Shown piece by piece: positions 2,535-59,586 of a stretch of 64,000 nt of DNA (position 1 is the stretch's first letter; each line of letters opens with the position of its first letter). The DNA is from Eledone cirrhosa (Eukaryota): the NCBI GenBank assembly GCA_964016885.1, contig OZ024740.1:12028001-12092000 (forward strand). Direction: 5' to 3'. The notes beneath the pieces were generated by a model that saw only the letters and a list, made by a program, of their open reading frames with translations, had not been told where the DNA came from and did not search any database. The translations under genes were made by a program, and so were the position numbers.

Positions 2535-2654
2535 TCGAGGGTTCAATCGGGGGTAACCACAGTAAGTAAAGTACTCAATGCATTAGTAGAGTATATACAA
2601 AATTTAATATAGAAATGGCTTTTACAGGACTAGAACTGTTTCTATATTAAAGTT

Positions 2655-2662
<8 letters not shown>
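2535..2662 (+). mobile_element. Second copy of the 803-935 family, rearranged into a small foldback
   Basis: Same head sequence. aaatggcttttacaggactagaactgtttc is the near reverse complement of ~905-935. tatacaaaatttaatatagaaa pairs with tttctatattaaagtttgtata. Confidence 0.6.
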
Positions 2663-2690
<28 letters not shown>

Positions 2691-2694
<4 letters not shown>

Positions 2695-3052
2695 CAAGGT
2701 TTAGCAAATAAGAAAAAGTTTCAAAATAAATTTTAAAAAATTCACTGTACTCACTATGGTTACCTTTACCGAATCGGTTTCGAGTCTCAAAAATAAAAGA
2801 ACCTTCTGACGAGAGTTTATCTTTTCAATGGAAGGCCGCAAGGACTGTCCATTTATTTTTGAGACTCGAAACCGATTCGGTAAAGGTAACCATAGTGAGT
2901 ACAGTGAATTTTTTAAAATTTATTTTGAAACTTTTTCTTATTTGCTAAACCTTGATTATATATGTTCTGGCTCGTTAATTTATTAACCTGCCATTTAACC
3001 ACATTGGCATATGGTTGGACAATACATGTGTCCCTAGACGCTTTTTGCGTGT

Positions 3053-3057
<5 letters not shown>
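2691..3057 (+). mobile_element. Foldback element in (TA)n: ~107-bp perfect inverted repeat plus unique tail (Penelope-like pseudo-LTR remnant)
   Basis: Arms 2691-2797 and 2852-2958 are reverse complements with a 54-nt loop. (TA)n lies on both sides and a hammerhead motif lies inside. Confidence 0.75.
2801..2887 (+). ncRNA. Type I hammerhead ribozyme
   Basis: Stem I ACCUU/AAGGU; core CUGACGA (2806-2812); stem II GAGU...ACUC with a long structured insert; GAAA (2868-2871); stem III CCG-AUU-CGG; GUA cleavage triplet (2880-2882). Confidence 0.8.
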
Positions 3058-3096
<39 letters not shown>

Positions 3097-12790: not shown

Positions 12791-13121
12791 TCAACATCAA
12801 TGACCAAAACAATATTTAAACTCTCATCAAATTTCCCTGTACAATCTTAATCTTAGGATTAAGATTAGTCTCAAGCCTGTATTTCAGATTAAGATGAGTC
12901 AGAAGCAAGGATTAACTTCAAAAGATGGAGTACAAATCTTAAAAGAAATTAGCAATAAAGGATCATTGCAAGTTATTGTTATTGTAGCTCTTATTGTTCA
13001 GCCCAAGGGCAACACTGATTGAGCTGTTCTATGACTGGAGACATTCCAACCATGACCAAATCATTTTTTCACTCGTATGTAAACTAAATTGAAGTTTTTT
13101 TTAATATATATTTTTATATAT

Positions 13122-15092
13122 TTTTGTGTATAATATTTATAAGGTTCCTAGCAATAATATATTTGTGTATAATATTTATAAGGTTCCTAGCAATAATATG
13201 TTTATAATATTTATAAGGTTCCTAGCAATAATATATTTGTCTATAATATTTATAAGGTTCCTAGCAATAATATGTTTATCTATAATATTTATAAGGTTCC
13301 TAGCAATAATATGTTTGTGTATAATATTTATAAGGTTCCTAGCAATAATATGTTTATCTATAATATTTATAAGGTTCCTAGCAATAATATATTTGTCTAT
13401 AATATTTATAAGGTTCCTAGCAATAATATGTTTATCTATAATATTTATAAGGTTCCTAGCAATAATATGTTTATCTATAATATTTATAAGGTTCCTAGCA
13501 ATAATATGTTTATCTATAATATTTATAAGGTTCCTAGCAATAATGTTTGTCTATAATATTTATAAGGTTCCTAGCAATAATATGTTTATCTATAATATTT
13601 ATAAGGTTCCTAGCAATAATATATTTATCTATAATATTTATAAGGTTACTAGCAATAATATGTTTGTGTATAATATTTATAAGGTTCCTAGCAATAATAT
13701 GTTTATCTATAATATTTATAAGGTTCCTAGCAATAATATATTTGTCTATAATATTTATAAGGTTCCTAGCAATAATATGTTTATCTATAATATTTATAAG
13801 GTTCCTAGCAATAATATATTTGTCTATAATATTTATAAGGTTCCTAGCAATAATATGTTTGTCTATAATATTTATAAGGTTCCTAGCAATAATATGTTTG
13901 TGTATAATATTTATAAGGTTCCTAGCAATAATATGTTTATCTATAATATTTATAAGGTTCCTAGCAATAATATGTTTGTCTATAATATTTATAAGGTTCC
14001 TAGCAATAATATGTTTATCTATAATATTTATAAGGTTCCTAGCAATAATATGTTTATCTATAATATTTATAAGGTTCCTAGCAATAATATGTTTATCTAT
14101 AATATTTATAAGGTTTCTAGCAATAATGTTTGTCTATAATATTTATAAGGTTCCTAGCAATAATATGTTTATCTATAATATTTATAAGGTTCCTAGCAAT
14201 AATATGTTTGTGTATAATATTTATAAGGTTCCTAGCAGTAATATGTTTATCTATAATATTTATAAGGTTCCTAGCAATAATATGTTTATCTATAATATTT
14301 ATAAGGTTCCTAGCAATAATATGTTTATCTATAATATTTATAAGGTTCCTAGCAATAATATGTTTGTCTATAATATTTATAAGGTTCCTAGCAATAATAT
14401 GTTTATCTATAATATTTATAAGGTTCCTAGCAATAATATGTTTGTGTATAATATTTATAAGGTTCCTAGCAATAATATGTTTATCTATAATATTTATAAG
14501 GTTCCTAGCAATAATATGTTTATCTATAATATTTATAAGGTTCCTAGCAATAATATGTTTGTCTATAATATTTATAAGGTTCCTAGCAATAATATGTTTA
14601 TCTATAATATTTATAAGGTTCCTAGCAATAATATGTTTGTCTATAATATTTATAAGGTTCCTAGCAATAATATGTTTATCTATAATATTTATAAGGTTCC
14701 TAGCAATAATATGTTTATCTATAATATTTATAAGGTTCCTAGCAATAATATGTTTATCTATAATATTTATAAGGTTCCTAGCAATAATATGTTTATCTAA
14801 TATTTATAAGGTTCCTAGCAATAATATGTTTATCTATAATATTTATAAGGTTTCTAGCAATAATGTTTGTCTATAATATTTATAAGGTTCCTAGCAATAA
14901 TATGTTTGTCTATAATATTTATAAGGTTCCTAGCAATAATATGTTTATCTATAATATTTATAAGGTTCCTAGCAATAATATGTTTATCTAATATTTATAA
15001 GGTTCCTAGCAATAATATATTTGTCTATAATATTTATAAGGTTCCTAGCAATAATGTTTGTGTATAATATTTATAAGGTTCCTAGCAATAAT
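13122..15092. repeat. 39-bp tandem satellite, ~50 copies
   Basis: Unit tataatatttataaggttcctagcaataatatgtttatc; the ORF track shows a 13-aa period, with occasional 2-bp deletions. Confidence 0.97.
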
Positions 15093-15985: not shown

Positions 15986-18900
15986 TTACAGACACATACT
16001 CAGAGTAGGTCCACTCACTCGGGCCATTCTTGCTTCTCTCACCCATCTTTCAACAAAATGGTGGGAAGAGAGCACTTCCCTCTCTACCCTGATTTTCCTT
16101 TTCAAATGAAATTTGAAAAAGTTAATCAGGGCATCACTGAAGAGGTAAGTGCTCGTCTTCAGCCCTTTCAAACGTGTCCACCATACTATATCTTTCGCCA
16201 TGGCCACCAGACAGATAAAAACTGCCTGCCCTTCCCGGCTAAAGGAAGAGGGCAGGGCAATCCTCACGATGGACTCAGATGATAGCCGGATCCGTCCTAC
16301 ACGCGACAGCAGGTGTTCGACAAACCCACAAATCAGCAATTTTCGGACACTGGACGAGTGCGTGCAGTACGGTTTCGTCGCCCTGCGCGCATCTCGGACA
16401 TGCCCGGCTGACGGCACCTCCATGCCTGTAGAGTTTATCCCGAACTGACAAAGCTCCTTGGTAGCACTGCCAGGCCAGAGATTTCTGGAAGTTGTCCATA
16501 GGTCCCGGCCCGAAAGTTCTTCCGAAGAGATTGGTTAGTTGATTTTCGTCGACGCCTAGAGTTTCCCCAAGTACGTCGTCGCTCTTCCCCTCCACTAATC
16601 CTCTATAGAACGCCGAGGTGGAGTTTCCACCGATCACATTGCCCGATTGGGCGAGGGCTGTGAGCGCCTGAAGACATTCCAGTCTCCAGGCGCTCCCTCT
16701 CGGTCTTCGCTTGACCCAGGACTGCAGCTCCGTCAAGGAAACGAGCTGGGGAAATACGTGTCTAGCAAACGGTGACCACACCTGATCACCGTCTAGGAAG
16801 AGGTGGATATGTCGTAGCCTGAGCACGTGTCTGCGCATCATCAGCCACGGCATGCCCAGCCCTCCACGTAGCGGGTGTTGACAGCAGATGGACCGCCTGA
16901 CCATCGGAGCGCGTCCCTTCCACAAAAAGCGAAAGAGCAAACGCTCCAGCGCAGTCAGGCGGGGCTTAGGACAAGGTACGACGGTCAGGCGGTAGCAGAT
17001 GACAGACGCGATGTACGCGTTAGCCACCTCCGCTCGACCTTTCAGGGATAGCTTCCTCTCCGCCTATTTCTGGGTGAGAGAAGCCACTCTGCTCGTCACC
17101 TCGTCCCAGTTTTTGTCCGTCTGGAGGTCTGGACCGAACCATACCCCTAGCAATTTATCCGTCCAGCGTCCGACGACGCTGTTGGACGGCATGGACCTGC
17201 CTCTCCAGGTGCCGAGCTGCAGGCCCACTGACTTTTCCTGGTTGGTCATTGCTCCTGTCACTGCTTCGTATTCTCTTAGTGTAGTGCCGATCGCCTCCAT
17301 GTGTTTGGCGTTCGACACCACTACGGTGACATCGTCTGCATATGCTGACACGGATCTTCCACATCCTAGTTCGCGCGGGACGCCCCTCAACGTCTCCAGT
17401 TTGTGCAGTAATGGCTCGAGAGTCAATACGTACAAGAGGGACGACAGGGGACATCCTTGGCGGACCGAGCGCATGATGTTGAACGGTTCCGAAAGGGGAC
17501 CATTCACTCTCACCACAGAGCAGATGTCGCTGTGCATGGCAGCGATCCAGCCTCTGAAGACGGGCCCAAAGCCAGCCGCCCTCAGGACTGCCGCTAGGTA
17601 ACGATGGTCGACCCTATCGAAAGCTTTCGACTGATCTAAATTGATCAAGGACCCACCCATGCCAGGTTCCCTAGCTACGCTCTCTACAATGTATCGCATG
17701 AGGTGGAGGTTGTCGTGGATGGATCTGTCGGGAATGGCGCATGTCTGCGCCTCTCCCACCAGACCACCAACGACAAGCGCCAACCTCTTTGCTAGCACCT
17801 TGGCCAAAATCTTGAACTCTGTGTTTAGCAGAGTTATGGGCCTGAAATTATCTATGTTATCCCCCTTGTTCGGATCCTTTCTCAGCAGTGCCACCGCTCC
17901 TCGGCTCACAGAGCTGGGAATTCTCCCGTTCTGTTGCCAGTTGCAGTAGACGTCTGCCAAGAGGCCTCCAAACAAGTCTGGCATCTGTACGTAAAGTTCA
18001 TAGGGCAGACCATCCAAACGAGGCGATTTACCCCTTGTGCAGCCAGTCATTGCCTCCCGTACTTCAGCGGCTGTTATCGGCTTTTCGCAACACTCCGCCT
18101 CAGTGGCCGAGAGCCGCGGCAGTCCGTCGAGGTAGACACTAAAGTCCATCCCTCGACCCAGCCAACCGCTGCCCCCGAACAGCTGAGCGAAGTGTCGCTG
18201 AAAAGCTTCACACATTTGCCCGGGATCGAGTAGCATGCGTCCGTCGTGGTCCACCAAAGACCGGATCGTGGCTTTCTTGCCACGACGCGCCTCCGCCACT
18301 CGGGCCCATTGAACGGCTTTCGTCCCCTCGTGTCTGAGAGCACGCACCCTAGCTCTGACAACGCAGCCTTCGTGCTTTGCATTGAAGAATTGGTCAAGGG
18401 TCAATTTCGCCGCAAGTACGTCGGTCGCGATGCCTTTGCTAAGCGCCTCGTCTAATTTTCTAACTAGTTCTCCCTCTACTCTATTTTTCTCTATTGCTAA
18501 AGCCTTACTAAACCTAATAGATTCTATTCTAATCGCTCTTTTCAGAGCAAACCACCACTTGTTGTTGACGATGGCCCCCGTCAACGCCCTCTTAACTAGT
18601 TCGCTAATCCGGTCTCTGTAGGCCTTGCGCGCTGGTAAGGACGCGTTTAGCTTCCAGTAGCCGGGTCCTCGTCTATGAAGCCTATCTAAGTCAAGCACAC
18701 AGATCACGAATTTGTGGTCCGTGTAGCTGACTATCTTGAATTGTGGACAGCCTATGCTAGACCTATCTATTTGCCTACAAAATACTCTATCTAGATATGA
18801 TCTGGATGACCCTATGCGATTTGTCCAAGTCCACATTGGCACATTTTGGAGATCCAATCGGTACCTGTCAGACAGTTCAAAACGCCTGAGCAGGTTGGTG

Positions 18901-19394
18901 AGGCTCTTGCACCCTCCACCCCTATCCGATAATCCCACACAGTCCCAGCGTGCATCTAAGATCCCGTTCCAGTCGCCCACTAACACTAAAGAGCGGGACG
19001 TTCCAAGAAAGGTCTCCAGACGCCGGAAGAAATCAGGCCGCCCTGCTCCTGTCGGGGCATAGACGGCCACTAGCCTGAAAGCTTGCCCGTCTCTGCTGGT
19101 CACGTCCAGCACCACCAACTTACCCTCTGGGTCCAGGAAGATGGCCCGTATGGCGAGATCCAAACCTCTCCGAAAAAGCACAGCAACTCCTCCCCTCGAT
19201 CCAGGACGGCTGGGAGATGCGTACACATCGTAGCCGCCGAAGATCGGTGCAAAGGCCCGTGCTTCGGAGATTCTGGTCTCGCTGATGGCCACTACATCTA
19301 TGTTTAGTGACCTGAGGTCGTTGAGCAGGTGACCCTGCTTCCATGACGACCCCAAGCCACGCGCATTTATGCTGCTTATTCTGAGTGAGGTCAT
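15986..19394 (-). pseudogene. Tx1/L1 ORF2 (APE endonuclease, reverse transcriptase, C-terminal zinc finger)
   Basis: Motifs SINARGL, ISETR, VYAP, VGDWN, LDRVF, TDHK; FRPITLLN, DQSKAFDRV, RQGCPLS, YADD; CPRC..ETVLHALVQCP. In-frame TAG at 17064-17066 and a frameshift near 16320. Confidence 0.92.
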
Positions 19395-19429
19395 GTTTAA
19401 AATGGAGTGGAAAAGATGGGAAAGACCAC

Positions 19430-21558
19430 TTACCGTACTTTACGTAGAGGAAGGATGGTTTCTCCATCCCTTTTCACTTGATCGTCTGGTGAAGGGACCG
19501 TTGAATCGTCCCTTCGGCTGGTCGTCGGCTCTTCTATGAGTATGTCCGAATATACTCTCCGGTTGAGAGTCCCTCCTAGGTCTCTGAAATCACCAACTGC
19601 GTTGGGGAATTTCGTTTTAATGTTTCTGTATTGTTTCTGTGCTATTTTTACCAATCTTATGTTCGTTGGTGTTTTGATTGGTGCTGGTATTATGTAGTCG
19701 TGCTGTGAAATGTCTGTGTGTTCAATTATGTAAGTCATTAGTTTCTTGTTGTGTGTATTTATTGCCGTGCATTTGTTTTTTTGGGGGTGGAGTGTGGTTC
19801 TGCTATTTTCTTGTCGTTGTTGCTGGGTGTGTGTGTTTTGTTGTTGTGTTTGCGATGTTGGTGCTTGTGGTGGTGGTGTTGAAGGTGTTGTTGTTGGCGG
19901 TGGGGTTGTCGCCGGTGGTGATGGTGGTGCTAGTGTGGGTGGTGATGGTGTTGGTGGTGTTGCTGCTGTGAGTCTCTTTGCAGTAGCCTTTACCCTTTTT
20001 TCATTTCTTTCCTCCATTTTCGAAGGCGACGATGCGCTGCTTCTGCGTTTGTGCCTTCTTGCGATCTTTTGCCATCCCTCTCCCACCTCACACTCCATGT
20101 CTGATTCCGTAAGGTCGGGGAGGGGTACCAGCTCCACTCTTTCACTTGTTGTTGTTGGTGATGTTTGCAGTGGAGTCTCTGTTGGAGCTGCAGTTGGTAT
20201 TACTGTTGTTGTTGTTAATACTTCCACTGCTGCTGCTCTTCTTGATTTCCTTGGCTTGGGTATGGGTGCCACGGACCTATCGTTCCTGGTTGCCGCTTGT
20301 CCTGTTGAAGGTAGTAGTGGAGCCGGATTCGGAAGGAGGGGGGTTTCTCCTTTCTCAGGGTCTTCTCGTTGCAGAAGGCCCTCAGGTGAGTCTTCGATCC
20401 ACAGCGAAAGCATTTCGGGCGTTTGCCCTCAACACTTATGGGCAGTTGAGTGCCGTTATCGAAGTCTATCACATCGGGGATAACTTCGATGCACTCCTGG
20501 TTGGTTTGGATTAACATCTCAATGGAGGTGCCGACCCAATCTTCTCTTACTCTTTTCTGTACTTACAGTACAGTTGTTTTGTCCTCGATTCCGACGAGGA
20601 CAGACGCGGCCAGCCAAGAAGGGGCCATCCCGGGGGGGACGTGGGTCAGTTTGACCCTCACAATTTTTTGCCCACAGTAGGAGGGCACCAACACCATTTC
20701 CTCGCTCCTTAGGATCACTAAGGATTGAGCCTTTGCCTCCTGGGGTGTGGAAAAAAGCACGTCTACGGTGGCATATTTCTTGCCTCGGGTGATATGCGTT
20801 TTCCGCTGCCACACAGACCCTAAGGCTTTTTGTATTTGAGCCTCTGTGGATCTTTCAACCCTACGGGATTTTGTGCTTACTGTACAGTACGTGACCGTAC
20901 AGTGCTGTTGGGTTTCTAAAAAAATTTCGGCTGCCTTGCAGATTGCTCGGTGTCCGGTTTTCGTCACTATCTTCTTCGCTTCCTCTAATTCCTCATTTGT
21001 TATGAGGATGGTTTCCAGGTTCTTTGCGATACCTGCAAACGAGATTGGTTTTTCTTTGCTGCTGTTGTTGTTGTTGTTGTTGTTGTCGTCAGAGCTGCTG
21101 TTACTTTTGTTGTTGCTGCAGGTACTACGACTACTGCCGCCGCCGCTGTTGCTGTGGTTGTTGTTGTTGCTGCTGATGCTGTTGTTGTTGCTGTTGCTGC
21201 TAATGCTATTGTTGTTTATGCTGATGCTGTTTCGGCTGCTACCGTTGTTTTCCTTGTCACTGTTGCTGCTGCTGCTGTTATTACGGCTGCTACTGCTATT
21301 ATTCATGACGTTAGATGAATGAAATGGGTTTTCGTATTTCCCGCACACCTTTTTCGTCGTTGTCGTCGTGGAGAAATCTTGCACGCTTTCTACGTGATTT
21401 TTCTTTACTGGCGTCGCTTGCGAAAGAGAAGGGAGGGAGAGAGACACATTTAGAGAAGGGAGGGAGAGAGACAATCTTCTCTCTGCTGTAGTGACGATTG
21501 AGGAAGAAGAAGACGGAATGAGTGGGAGTAACCCATGAAAATTCTTTTTCGTAGCCAT
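19430..21558 (-). pseudogene. Tx1/L1 ORF1 (gag-like)
   Basis: CFRCGSKTHLRAFC = CX2CX4HX4C, in frame with 21558-20563 across a TAA at 20563-20565. A frameshift then leads into the Pro/Thr-rich part ending at 19430. The N-terminus is Asn/Ser-rich. Confidence 0.8.
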
Positions 21559-21772
21559 GTTTTTTTTTGTTTAAAATAAATATTGGACACAAAACCCCAA
21601 TAAGCGGTTATTTAACCCCGAAGGGCCAAATAACGGGCAGAAAGACCCCTCTCACGAGGAGGAGGGTGTTTTTGTCTACAATTTGGTTAAAGTTTTAAAC
21701 AATTTACAATTGTTATAGCGGTCAAAATTTACAATACCTTACAGAGCCGAGATTCTGTCAACCATAGCATTC

Positions 21773-24827: not shown

Positions 24828-25514
<687 letters not shown>

Positions 25515-25529
25515 CATATATATATATCT

Positions 25530-28370
25530 ATAGATCCGGGGAACACACAAGCCAGGTAGATTATATCCTTACCAGAAGACGTGACAGAGTGTCTGTTGTA
25601 AACACTAAATCCCTCCCCCATGAAGAATGCACCTCCCAACATAGACTGATAATTAGCGACCTCACAGTCAGGACGAGACGTACTCGACAGCAGAAGAGGA
25701 CTATCCTCAGGAGAAAAATATGGAAGCTAAAGGACCCCACAGCCAGGAATAAATTTCAAAGCATATTACTTGATGCTTTCGACAGTAAGGAAGAACATTT
25801 AGAGTTGGACAATATAGAGGGACAGTGGGAATTTCTGAAAGCAAACCTGCTGATGGCGACAGACGAAGTCTGTGGCTGGAGCAGGCCTGTAGGCAGGAGG
25901 AGAGTAACATGGTGGTGGAACAGTAAGGTGGAGGGGTCAATTAAGGCCAAAAAGCAGGCTTGGAAAGTATGGCGGGATGGGGGAAGTAGAGAAGACTATC
26001 AAGTGGCCAGGAGGGAAGCTAGGAGACAAGTGTACTTAGCCAGAAGGGAAGCTGAGGAAAGAAAGTTCAAGCATGTTCTACAATGCGAGGACCAAAAACG
26101 TGAGGTGTTCAGGATTGCTAGGCAATGCGTCAAGGAAAACCGTGATATTGTTGGGGAGAAGTGTGTACTTAACGATGATGGCATACTTGCCATCACCGAC
26201 GCTGATAAGAAGGTAGCTTGGAAGTGTCACTATGAAAGGCTACTAAATGAGGAGAATAAATGGGAGAAAGACAGTCTCCCCCATATCGACCCAATAGAGG
26301 GACCAGCAGTGTTAGTCGAGGGGAGTATAATAAGTAAGGCAATCAAAGATATGAAGACAGGTAAGGCGGCTGGGCCTTCGGAAATAGTTGCTGAGATGCT
26401 GAAAGCATCTGGCACGGTGGGACACACCATGGTCACCCGCATAGTTAACCAAGTCGTACAGAATGGGGTTGTTCTGAAGGACTGGCATAGCAGCATCATC
26501 GTTAACTGTTATAAGGGTAAAGGAGACGCCCTAGATAGGAGTAACTATAGAGGCATTAAATTAATCGACCAGGTCATGAAGGTCACAGAAAAAGTAATAG
26601 CACAACTAATCAGAGAGAGAATTGACCTAGATGAAATGCAGTTCGGGTTTGTGTCAGGCAAAAGTACCACAGATGCTCTTTTCATTGTACGACAACTACA
26701 GGAGAAGTACCTAGCTAAAGGTAAACCCCTCTACTTAGCTTTTGTCGACTTGGAGAAAGCCTTCGACAGAGTCCCCCACTCCATTATCTGGTGGGCTCTT
26801 AGAAAACTAGGCGTTGACGAATGGCTTGTGAGAGCTATACAAGCCATGTATAAAGAAACAGTCAGCAAGGTTAGAATTAACAACGAATATAGTGAAGAGT
26901 TTAGCGTAAAAGTTGGCGTCCATCAGGGCTCTGTTCTCAGCCCCCTACTATTTATTATTGCCCTTCAGGCTATAACAGAGGAGTTCAAGACCGGCTGCCC
27001 ATGGGAACTCCTATACGCAGACGACCTGACACTCATAGCGGAATCAATGGCCGAGCTAGAGAAGAAATTCCAAACATGGAAGCACGGCCTAGAATCAAAA
27101 GGACTTAAAATTAACCTGGCTAAGACTAAAGTTCTAGTTTGTAGGAAAGAAAATAAGGCGGCGGTCCCTTCTGGGAAATGGTCGTGCTCGGTGTGTAGGA
27201 AAGGCGTAGGTAGAAACTCCATTTTATGTCCTAAATGCAAAGTATGGGTGCATAAAAGATGTAGTGGGATCACAGGTAAGCTAACTAAGAACATAGATTT
27301 TACATGTGGCCAGTGCTCTGGTGCAATAAGTAGCAGCAAGTGCCCACAAAATACTAGCTCTTTCAATTTCGCAGAGGGTTCTATAGAAATAGTGGACAGC
27401 TTCCGTTACCTGGGCGATAAAATCAGCAGTGGGGGAGGGTGCTCTGAAAGTACAGTAGCTAGAGTCAGAACTGGTTGGAAAAAGTTCAGAGAGCTTATAC
27501 CACTATTAGCTGCTAAAGGGTTCTCCCTAAAAATGAAAGGCAGGTTGTACGATGCCTGCATACGAACAGCAATGTTGCATGGCAGTGAGACCTGGGCATT
27601 GTGTGCAGAGGATATATGCAGACTAGAGAGGAACGAAGCTTGCATCCTCCGCTGGATGTGTAACAGTAATATACGTGAACGGCAAAGCATAAACGAACTA
27701 AGGAAAAAATTAGAAATAAGAGGGATCAGATATTGTTTACTCGAGAGAAGGCTACGTTGGTATGGACACGTGATGCGCATGAAAGTCGATAGCTGTATAA
27801 CAAAGTGCAGGGCAATAAAGATAGACGGTAACCACGGAATAGGCAGACCTAGAAAAACCTGGGATGAGCTGATAAACTCCGACCTCACACACTTACACCT
27901 CTCCAAGACAATGTCACTGGACCGAGACCTTTGGCGGTACTCAGTAACAGAGAAGACCCGCCTTACCTAAATACATAGTAAAACCTACTACAGCCAGTAG
28001 GCATCTCTAACAAAATACCCCCCCGTCCCACCACCCCCACCCCCACCCCATCCACACCACCCCGTTCTATGTAAAGTTATGTTGGTGCCACACCATCCAG
28101 GCCGAAACAAATGAGATCGTGTAGGTGTCACGACAAAAAAACACACAGTCCACGCTGTAATGTGGCCGTGTAGGCAACACGGTAAAAACCTCCCAGACCC
28201 ACACTGTAAATGTGGTTGGTGTTAGGAAGGGCATCCAACTGTAGAAAACCTGCCAGACAGTCCTATGCGAGCAAGACAATCACTCTTGCCTCAAGTGGGA
28301 ATACCCCCGTCCAAACCCATGCAAGCGTGGAACACGGACGTTAAACATTGATGATGATGATGATGATGAT
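25530..28370 (+). mobile_element. 5'-truncated RTE-clade LINE with 3'UTR and (GAT)n tail
   Basis: Starts within the endonuclease C-terminus (SQVDYIL...SQHRLII) directly after (TA)n and ends gttaaacattgatgatgatgat. Confidence 0.92.
25589..27970 (+). CDS. RTE ORF remnant: reverse transcriptase with a PHD finger (uninterrupted frame, N-terminally truncated)
   Basis: NYRGIKL, QFGF, FVDLEKAFDRV, HQGSVLSP, YADD; C4HC3 pattern CSVC..ILCPKCKVWVHKRC..FTCGQC; RRLRWYGHVMRM, GRPRKTW. Confidence 0.9.
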   Translation: MSVVNTKSLPHEECTSQHRLIISDLTVRTRRTRQQKRTILRRKIWKLKDPTARNKFQSILLDAFDSKEEHLELDNIEGQWEFLKANLLMATDEVCGWSRPVGRRRVTWWWNSKVEGSIKAKKQAWKVWRDGGSREDYQVARREARRQVYLARREAEERKFKHVLQCEDQKREVFRIARQCVKENRDIVGEKCVLNDDGILAITDADKKVAWKCHYERLLNEENKWEKDSLPHIDPIEGPAVLVEGSIISKAIKDMKTGKAAGPSEIVAEMLKASGTVGHTMVTRIVNQVVQNGVVLKDWHSSIIVNCYKGKGDALDRSNYRGIKLIDQVMKVTEKVIAQLIRERIDLDEMQFGFVSGKSTTDALFIVRQLQEKYLAKGKPLYLAFVDLEKAFDRVPHSIIWWALRKLGVDEWLVRAIQAMYKETVSKVRINNEYSEEFSVKVGVHQGSVLSPLLFIIALQAITEEFKTGCPWELLYADDLTLIAESMAELEKKFQTWKHGLESKGLKINLAKTKVLVCRKENKAAVPSGKWSCSVCRKGVGRNSILCPKCKVWVHKRCSGITGKLTKNIDFTCGQCSGAISSSKCPQNTSSFNFAEGSIEIVDSFRYLGDKISSGGGCSESTVARVRTGWKKFRELIPLLAAKGFSLKMKGRLYDACIRTAMLHGSETWALCAEDICRLERNEACILRWMCNSNIRERQSINELRKKLEIRGIRYCLLERRLRWYGHVMRMKVDSCITKCRAIKIDGNHGIGRPRKTWDELINSDLTHLHLSKTMSLDRDLWRYSVTEKTRLT

Positions 28371-58369: not shown

Positions 58370-59586
58370 TCACCACCACCACCACCACCACTGCCTCCAC
58401 CACCACCACTGTCACTACTACTTCCACCACCACCACCACTGCCTCCACCACCACTGCCTCCACCACCACCACTGTCACTACTACTTCCACCATCACCACC
58501 GCTGCCTCCACCACCACCACTGCCACTACCACTACCCCCACCACCACCACTGCTTCCACCACCACTACTGCCACCACCACTGTCACTACTACTTCCACCA
58601 CCACCACCACTGCTACCACCGTCGCCACCACTGCCACCACCACTGCCGCCACCACTGCCCCCACCACCACCACTGCCTCCACCACCACTACCACCACCAC
58701 TACCACCAACACCACCACCATCACCGCCCCCGCTACCACTACCACTACCCCCACTACCACCACCACCGCTACTACCACAATTGCTACCACCACCACTACC
58801 ACCACTACCACCACCACCGCTACCACCACCACTACCACCACTACCGCCACCACCACTACCACCACTACCACCACCACCACTGCTCCCACCACCATCACTA
58901 CCATTACTACCACTACCACCACCACCACCACCACCACCACTACCACCACTACCACCACTACCACCACCACCACTGCCTCCACCACCACTACCACCACCAC
59001 CACCACTACCTCCACCACCACTACCTCCACTACCACCACCACGACAACCACCACCACCACCACCACCACTGCTACCACCACCACTACCACCACTACCACC
59101 ACCACTATCATCACCACCACCACCACCACCACCACCACTAACACCACCACTACCACCACCGCTACCACCACCACTACCACCACTACCGCCACCACCACTA
59201 CCACCACTACCACCACCACCACTGCTCCCACCACCACCACTGCCATTACTACCACCACCACCACTACCACCACCACCACCACCACCACAACCACCACAAC
59301 CACCACCACCATCACCACCACCACAACCACCACCACTATCACTGCCACCAAAACCACCACAACCACCACCACCACTACCACCACAACCACCACCACCATC
59401 ACCGCCACCACAACCACCACAACCACCGCCAACACAACCACCACAACCACCACCACCATCACCGCCACCACAACCACCACCACCACCACAAACACCACCA
59501 CCATCACCGCCACCACAACCACCACAACCACCACCACCTCAACCACCACAACCACCACCACCATCACCGCCACCACAACCACCACA
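58370..59586. repeat. Degenerate (CAC)n trinucleotide tract, ~1.2 kb
   Basis: Directly visible; yields poly-His, poly-Pro and poly-Val ORFs. Confidence 0.95.

What the first reader, a model, noticed from the sequence alone, without database searches (positions are those of the whole stretch)
2691..3057. Complete hammerhead ribozyme caged inside a perfect 107-bp foldback inserted in (TA)n
Seen: all core nucleotides and all three helices can be drawn (2801-2887). Stem II is unusually long, with an internal aaugga/uccauu helix and a ccGCAAgg tetraloop hairpin. The upstream arm (2691-2797) is antisense to the 3' half of the ribozyme. Known: Penelope-like elements carry type I hammerheads in pseudo-LTRs that are often inverted. 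Inference: this is a young non-autonomous PLE or retrozyme-like unit. A read-through transcript would form long dsRNA that blocks cleavage, while a transcript starting in the loop would self-cleave.
Basis: partly seen in the sequence, partly recalled or inferred. Interest (0 to 1): 0.75.

Follow-up and report, generated by a model that had tools for sequence, protein, structure and literature searches.

The report
Two-armed Penelope-type retrozyme insertion
This is one young copy of a 486-base non-coding repeat that carries a hammerhead ribozyme motif and occurs hundreds of times in this genome; its mirror-image arm is likely a by-product of a borrowed Penelope-type enzyme copying the RNA onto both sides of a DNA break, and probably not a switch that cages the ribozyme.

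Summary
In detail: a complete type I hammerhead motif (2801-2887) and a perfect inverted arm (2691-2797 against 2852-2958) lie between (TA)n tracts. The locus is a truncated young copy of a 486-bp tandem, non-coding repeat (626 exact hits of a 26-mer; a sister subfamily has 1,236). Helix II covaries across variants; the core motif is conserved.

The cage is not a conserved unit. In 80 sampled loci, 29 are inverted, with junctions at many different positions. Outer ends fall at two fixed sites, A (76 nt after the cut site) and B (about 100-120 nt further). 25 of 29 inverted copies are A+B, none A+A or B+B, and 16 of those 25 cannot be self-primed foldbacks. An RT+GIY-YIG Penelope family (Neptune-type, 12,884 hits) shows a related hammerhead and the same rule, but no direct parent was found. 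Near-identical multi-unit arms favour a circular template.

Cleavage and expression are untested. The scan already reported this two-armed pattern for other families in this genome. Verdict: new member of the non-LTR retrozymes; the insertion rule is the interesting part.

The parts
2657..2692 (.). (TA)18 tract, left side of the insertion site; it follows another dispersed repeat at 2539-2642
2691..2797 (-). Inverted arm = monomer positions 58-164; outer end at fixed site A; inferred cDNA primed from the left side of the break
2795..2797 (.). 3-nt AAA microhomology at the head-to-head junction of the two arms
   Evidence: read from the sequence
2795..3057 (+). Sense arm = monomer positions 1-263 of the 486-bp unit; outer end at fixed site B; 2 differences from the family majority, 1 of them private
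2801..2887 (+). Type I hammerhead motif with oversized helix II (55 nt); predicted cut 2882/2883
2883..2953 (+). Predicted hairpin H1 closed by AAGGU/ACCUU, from the cut site to just before site A; competes with helix I; also predicted in the sister subfamily
2954..2963 (+). Site A (2958): main family 3' end, TA-like sequence; inferred first reverse-transcription start
2959..3057 (+). Penelope-type tail between sites A and B, about 100 nt here; ends in a predicted hairpin (core 3031-3057) also predicted in the sister subfamily
3057..3094 (.). (AT)19 tract, right side of the insertion site

Best explanation
This is a young, truncated copy of a 486-bp non-coding tandem repeat with a type I hammerhead motif, and its inverted arm was likely made during insertion by a borrowed Penelope-type RT-endonuclease. 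Shown: the family, its monomer, the two fixed ends A and B at (TA)n, and the rule that inverted copies carry one A arm and one B arm pointing outward. Inferred: the enzyme cuts both strands of a (TA)n tract. Each freed 3' end primes reverse transcription on the same RNA, one at site A and one at site B, each just 3' of a stem-loop. The two cDNAs run upstream for different lengths (107 and about 263 nt here) and are joined head to head through a short microhomology. The template is probably a self-cleaved and circularised monomer, since both arms cross the cut site and sister copies carry up to about 10 near-identical units per arm. The foldback most likely silences this copy's ribozyme by accident; the copy is probably a dead end.
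For: Monomer 486 bp in tandem, no long ORF. 626 exact hits of a 26-mer, control 0. Of 80 loci: 51 simple (41 end at A, 5 at B, 5 elsewhere); 29 inverted, all with 3' ends outward, 25 A+B, 0 A+A, 0 B+B, 4 with one non-standard end. 16 of the 25 A+B loci have an A arm not contained in the B arm, which excludes self-primed foldback for them. Arms of one locus differ at 5.4% of sites against 9.5% between loci. Sister subfamily: 6 of 7 inverted loci A+B; L272 has 9 full units on one arm and 1 on the other, differing by 0-3 of 485 nt, against a mean of 40 between loci. Neptune-type PLE family F1 (L145: 938-aa open frame, RVT_1 below cut-off at E 2e-6, GIY-YIG above cut-off) has a hammerhead-like motif with nearly the same helix I and III sequence, an A end at about +78, and 13 of 15 inverted loci A+B. 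PMC11167929: a PLE protein cuts and extends both target strands, starts at two internal sites that delimit the tail, and is predicted to be a dimer. Helix II changes on both sides at G-C/A-U (13 of 43 rows) and C-G/U-A (13 of 43), 0 of 500 shuffles as high.
Against: No autonomous parent with direct homology: blastn of the monomer against 50 GIY-YIG loci gave only short AT-rich matches, best E 0.1, and only 150 of 10,596 candidates were scored. The window's own arms are nested, so a self-primed foldback is not excluded for this copy. One sister locus (L211) is A+A. Simple copies end mostly at A here (41 of 51) but mostly at B in F1 (6 of 8), and the tail lengths differ (about 110 against about 65 nt). 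In vitro the anole PLE showed no strand difference in start site and did not need ribozyme cleavage. Helices I and III show no change on both sides, and the outer helix I pair is broken in 25 of 43 rows. The covariation counts reflect few events on a shared tree. Homogeneous arrays could also come from a long linear transcript or from later unequal crossover.
Confidence: 0.8

Rival explanations
1. Self-primed foldback: one cDNA primed at B ran past the ribozyme, snapped back on itself at the AAA microhomology and copied itself out to site A.
For: In this copy the A arm is nested in the B arm and identical to it over 100 of 100 compared sites. 9 of 25 A+B loci are nested. L211 is A+A with a rare variant on both arms.
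Against: 16 of 25 A+B loci are not nested, and 4 have a B arm that does not even reach site A. Foldback gives no reason to stop exactly at A. Arm identity here is explained by youth (2 differences from the family majority).
Confidence: 0.1
2. Same two-primer insertion, but from a long linear multi-unit transcript; the hammerhead is weak or protein-assisted and no circle is involved.
For: PMC11167929 found uncleaved RNA to be the main substrate and the ribozyme protein-assisted. Arm 5' ends are not clearly enriched at the cut site (5 of 109 at positions 84-93, p 0.075). The hammerhead fold is weak in longer contexts.
Against: Arms of about 4.9 kb and 0.9 kb built from one variant monomer would need a homogeneous source array of 11 or more units read through without cleavage. 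Circular RNAs are shown for other animal retrozymes (PMC7229834).
Confidence: 0.3
3. Regulatory cage: the antisense arm is kept to switch the ribozyme off in read-through transcripts and on in transcripts starting in the loop.
For: About 20 nt or more of the upstream arm sets helix I and II probability to 0.000; the arms are perfect.
Against: Junctions differ among inverted loci, the geometry is routine in F1, and there is no evidence of a promoter in the loop. The downstream H1 hairpin already suppresses the fold without the arm.
Confidence: 0.04
4. Assembly artefact (inverted chimeric read) or a foldback DNA transposon with terminal inverted repeats.
For: No contig laid spans the whole foldback.
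Against: The ends obey the A+B rule in three families. The unit is a tandem monomer and 51 of 80 copies have no inverted arm.
Confidence: 0.02

Closest known systems
Metazoan non-LTR retrozymes (Cervera and de la Pena 2020, PMC7229834, parts 2-3 of 6 read; Li, Clavereau and Pollet, bioRxiv 10.64898/2026.07.22.740005, part 1 of 5 and passages read)
   Same: Non-coding, low-GC tandem monomer with one type I hammerhead per unit; monomers to multimers dispersed in an animal genome that also holds PLEs; structured predicted circle (z -5.9 and -3.0).
   Different: Monomer 483-486 nt against 150-450 bp; 55-nt helix II with internal loops; (TA)n targeting with no readable target duplication; two fixed ends and head-to-head arms, which the parts read do not describe; cleavage and circular RNA untested here.
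Penelope-like elements, Neptune type, with pseudo-LTR, tail and inverted 5'-truncated copy (Craig et al. 2021, PMC8557442, passages and section 11 read; Cervera and de la Pena 2014, PMC4209133, parts 1-2 of 4 read)
   Same: Partial tandems, inverted 5'-truncated copy, tail at one end only, hammerhead upstream of the 3' end, microsatellite targeting.
   Different: No RT-EN frame; tail about 100-120 nt against 30-40 bp; helix III is a full 4-bp stem rather than minimal.
Poseidon element PAc of the anole (Frangieh et al. 2024, PMC11167929, parts 1-2 of 4 read)
   Same: Two internal reverse-transcription starts downstream of the hammerhead delimit the tail; AT-rich target; both strands cut and extended.
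   Different: No strand preference for the start site was seen in vitro, whereas inverted copies here pair A with B almost without exception; the ATG in helix II is not conserved here.
LINE-1 twin priming (recalled; no call)
   Same: Both target strands prime one RNA and the cDNAs join by microhomology, giving a 5' inversion.
   Different: Here both starts are fixed internal sites, the arms overlap in sequence and can be multi-unit.

Membership tests
Type I hammerhead ribozyme | Core CUGANGA, GAAA and UH with three helices, open helix I | tested here: met
   CUGANGA positions differ from the majority in 9 of 632 letters
Type I hammerhead ribozyme | Helices supported by compensatory change | tested here: inconclusive
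   Met for helix II (2 well-populated pairs); helices I and III show no change on both sides (44 rows hand-picked from 153 distinct sequences)
Type I hammerhead ribozyme | Match to an Rfam hammerhead model | tested here: not met
   probably due to the long helix II (inference)
Type I hammerhead ribozyme | Self-cleavage at the UH site | not testable with these tools
   needs in vitro transcription
Non-LTR retrozyme | Tandem non-coding monomers, each with a type I hammerhead | tested here: met
   L018 array, period 486; longest sense frame 67 aa; sister arrays of 8-9 full units. The window copy itself holds under one unit.
Non-LTR retrozyme | Monomer of about 150-450 bp | tested here: not met
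   483-486 bp, slightly above the range in PMC7229834
Non-LTR retrozyme | Expressed as circular and linear RNA | not testable with these tools
Non-autonomous Penelope-like element | Partial tandem and inverted insertions with a tail at one end | tested here: met
   25 of 29 inverted loci A+B
Non-autonomous Penelope-like element | Sequence homology to the pseudo-LTR of an autonomous PLE | tested here: inconclusive
   No blastn homology to 50 GIY-YIG loci; only the hammerhead helix I/III words and the cut-to-A spacing are shared with F1; most PLE candidates not examined
Autonomous Penelope-like element | ORF with RT and GIY-YIG | tested here: not met
   no such frame in the monomer
Neptune clade (for the candidate partner F1) | C-terminal GIY-YIG, DKG motif and CX2-5CxxC linker; clade placement by RT tree | tested here: inconclusive
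   Motifs present in L145 (compared); no tree built, so Neptune versus Nematis is open

The most novel reading that the evidence does not exclude
A dimeric Penelope RT docks on two hairpin-marked start sites of one small circular RNA and copies it round the circle from both strands of a (TA)n break at once, each strand assigned to one site. The H1 hairpin that forms after cleavage would switch the RNA from ribozyme to RT template. This would explain the PLE tail, the inverted pseudo-LTR and retrozyme arrays with one mechanism.
Probability: 0.4. Interest if true: 0.75.

Novelty: new member of a known kind. Interest (0 to 1): 0.42.

Why it matters
The locus itself is an ordinary mobile-element copy. 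The family matters as a clean record of how Penelope enzymes insert RNA. The A+B rule, the non-nested arms and the near-identical multi-unit arms give sharp predictions for the in vitro PLE system that now exists: two start sites assigned to two target strands, and a circular template. Circular templates were proposed in 2014 (PMC4209133) but are not shown in the papers read here.

Tried and rejected
Rfam: no hammerhead model hit; the miRNA-precursor hits are generic hairpin matches far below their gathering scores. No RNA holder listed; only 3 runs of one sample, kept as contigs, which cannot show expression or span the foldback. The ATG at 2828 in helix II as a PLE ORF start (by analogy with PAc): 52 aa, no Pfam hit, and ACG in many variants; rejected. 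RNA-editing scars: A>G 68 against T>C 99 on the sense strand, equal per base (p 0.81); not seen. Clustering of 5' ends at the cut site: 5 of 109, p 0.075; some of the 7 ends at position 2 may be alignment edges. Parent search: blastn against 50 GIY-YIG loci negative; a short-helix-II pattern gave 6 hits, all deletion variants of this family or its sister; an intermediate pattern gave 10 hits, 8 F1-like and 2 of this family. The first descriptor run missed the window motif through a loop-length bug and was rerun. Earlier scan notes by sequence and by nearby place: none. Paper searches: Penelope-like + hammerhead + inverted + microsatellite, hammerhead + octopus + retrozyme, Penelope + hammerhead + pLTR + tail, Penelope + twin priming + inverted (2 unrelated listings), Neptune + Penelope + octopus + cephalopod. 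None of the listings or passages read states a strict A+B rule. PMC13282606 (passages only) does not mention ribozymes. No supplements were read; those of PMC8557442 and PMC11167929 may describe such ends.

Full report
1. Observation. The motif is there as described. Helix I is 2801-2805/2883-2887, the core CUGACGA 2806-2812, helix II 2813-2867, GAAA 2868-2871, helix III 2871-2881 and the predicted cut 2882/2883. Folded alone, 2801-2887 takes the hammerhead fold as its minimum-energy structure, without unusual stability (z -0.8). A strict descriptor finds only this site in the window and none in 500 block-shuffles of the 37-kb non-satellite part. Rfam has no hammerhead match at either threshold. 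The arms 2691-2797 and 2852-2958 are perfectly complementary and meet at a 3-nt AAA microhomology. Both sides are (TA)n; the left tract follows another dispersed repeat at 2539-2642.

2. The family. The window lies in a 3.0-Gb genome. A 26-mer from the ribozyme's 3' half has 626 exact hits, control 0. Related loci show a tandem monomer of 486 bp (L018) with no sense frame over 67 aa. The window holds monomer positions 1-263 on the plus strand and 58-164 on the minus strand. It differs from the family majority at 2 sites, 1 private, so it is young, which explains the perfect arms. A sister subfamily, about 80% identical, has 1,236 exact hits of a 22-mer, and its 40 best copies are identical over 161 nt.

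3. The ends. I sampled 80 distinct loci from the first 100 listed of the 626 hits (all on contig C1; 4 duplicate loci dropped; 3 listed places in 2 loci not fetched; every locus must contain the 26-mer, which biases arm lengths). Outer 3' ends fall at site A (monomer 155-172, window 2958) or site B (258-290, window 3057). Of 51 simple insertions, 41 end at A, 5 at B and 5 elsewhere. All 29 inverted insertions have their 3' ends outward; 25 are A+B, none A+A or B+B, and 4 have one non-standard end. By hand arithmetic, a fair coin per arm gives 25 of 25 mixed pairs with probability 3e-8. The inner junctions vary freely, so the cage is no conserved unit. A self-primed foldback can only give an A arm nested in the B arm; 16 of 25 are not nested. 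The window copy is among the 9 nested ones. In the sister subfamily 6 of 7 inverted loci are A+B and one (L211) is A+A. Among 12 further loci picked for arrays or inverted pairs, 10 are inverted: 7 A+B, 3 with one non-standard end.

4. Link to Penelope elements. The genome has 10,596 GIY-YIG candidates, 150 scored. Several long frames carry RT and GIY-YIG matches, with DKG and a CX4CxxC linker that fit the Neptune/Nematis description rather than Hydra; no tree was built. Family F1 (L145) has a hammerhead-like motif with a U3-A8 core, the same ACCUU/AAGG helix I and a palindromic helix III, and 12,884 exact hits. Its A end lies about 78 nt after the cut site, against 76 here. In the first 30 hits, 13 of 15 inverted loci are A+B and 2 have an unresolved second end; 6 of 8 simple ones end at B. 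Short foldbacks around the ribozyme are common there. There is no alignable homology between the monomer and 50 GIY-YIG loci, so F1 is a candidate partner or a cousin of it, not a shown parent. PMC11167929 explains such a tail: the anole PLE protein starts reverse transcription at two internal sites downstream of the hammerhead and cuts and extends both target strands. PMC8557442 describes inverted 5'-truncated copies and a tail at one end only.

5. The RNA. In 44 rows hand-picked from 153 distinct ribozyme sequences, 93% of cells pair. Two helix II pairs change on both sides in 13 of 43 rows each, and no shuffle of 500 reaches the score. These are few events on a shared tree. Helices I and III give no such support. 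Helix III is a perfect palindrome in the sister subfamily and a near-palindrome here, and co-folding predicts a stable duplex, so the dimer form of PMC4209133 is possible. Downstream of the cut site, AAGGU can pair with ACCUU at 2949-2953 to close hairpin H1, which ends just before site A and is predicted in both subfamilies; a second hairpin ends at site B. Helix I probability is 0.87 for 2798-2890, 0.27 to 2960, 0.03 to 3057 and 0.000 with the upstream arm. So the arm would block the fold, but the fold is already disfavoured at equilibrium without it.

6. Template. Arms within a locus differ at 5.4% of sites and tandem units at 4.7%, against 9.5% between loci. In L272, 9 full units on one arm and 1 on the other differ by 0-3 nt, against a mean of 40 between loci; L271 has 8 units differing by 0-1. 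This is what two RTs on one circular monomer predict; a long homogeneous linear transcript or later array expansion is not excluded. There is no A>G bias and no clear pile-up of 5' ends at the cut site. Circular RNAs are shown for coral, mussel and axolotl retrozymes (PMC7229834) but untested here.

7. Mechanism. Shown: family, monomer, motif conservation, two fixed ends, A+B rule, non-nested arms, the same rule in an RT-EN family. Inferred: PLE-mediated cutting of (TA)n, priming from both strands at A and B, head-to-head joining (confidence 0.8); circular template (about 0.6); accidental silencing of this copy.

8. Novelty. It works like, and fits most tested features of, a non-LTR retrozyme mobilised by a PLE, a link already argued in print. 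The monomer is slightly larger than the published range and helix II is oversized. The strict pairing of ends was not found in the listings and passages read, but supplements were not seen. Interest 0.42: the locus is ordinary and the cage idea fails, but the family makes an open question on Penelope insertion testable.

Noticed in passing
L170, L219, L271, L272 (G000 C1 and C4): Younger sister retrozyme subfamily, monomer 481-487 bp, 1,236 exact hits, arrays of 8-9 near-identical full units, perfectly palindromic helix III.
   Followed up: yes
L145:1773-7815 and L241-L270: Neptune-type PLE family F1 with a U3-A8 hammerhead variant, 12,884 exact hits; many copies are short foldbacks whose 5' ends cluster about 60-75 nt upstream of the cut site, unexplained.
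   Followed up: partly
L147, L148, L151, L161: At least three further RT+GIY-YIG families with long open frames (up to 1,096 aa), some with their own hammerhead-like motifs downstream of the frame.
   Followed up: partly
window 2539-2642: A short dispersed repeat (76-88% identical copies in many fetched loci) that precedes (TA)n; the element sits in the tract next to it.
   Followed up: partly
window 29929-56719: 27-kb satellite of a 48-bp unit with 96-bp and longer higher-order periods.
   Followed up: no
window 13118-15092 and 58371-59585: 39-bp minisatellite (51 copies, 95% matches) and a CAC-rich 24-bp array.
   Followed up: no
window 16275-21570 (-): LINE-like element in several frames: endonuclease + RT (791 aa) and zf-RVT; two upstream frames without a Pfam match.
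   Followed up: partly
window 25403-27970 (+): 855-aa open frame with RVT_1 followed by a PHD-finger match (E 1e-5), an uncommon order.
   Followed up: partly
L211:1430-1925: The only A+A inverted copy seen; both arms share a rare variant.
   Followed up: partly
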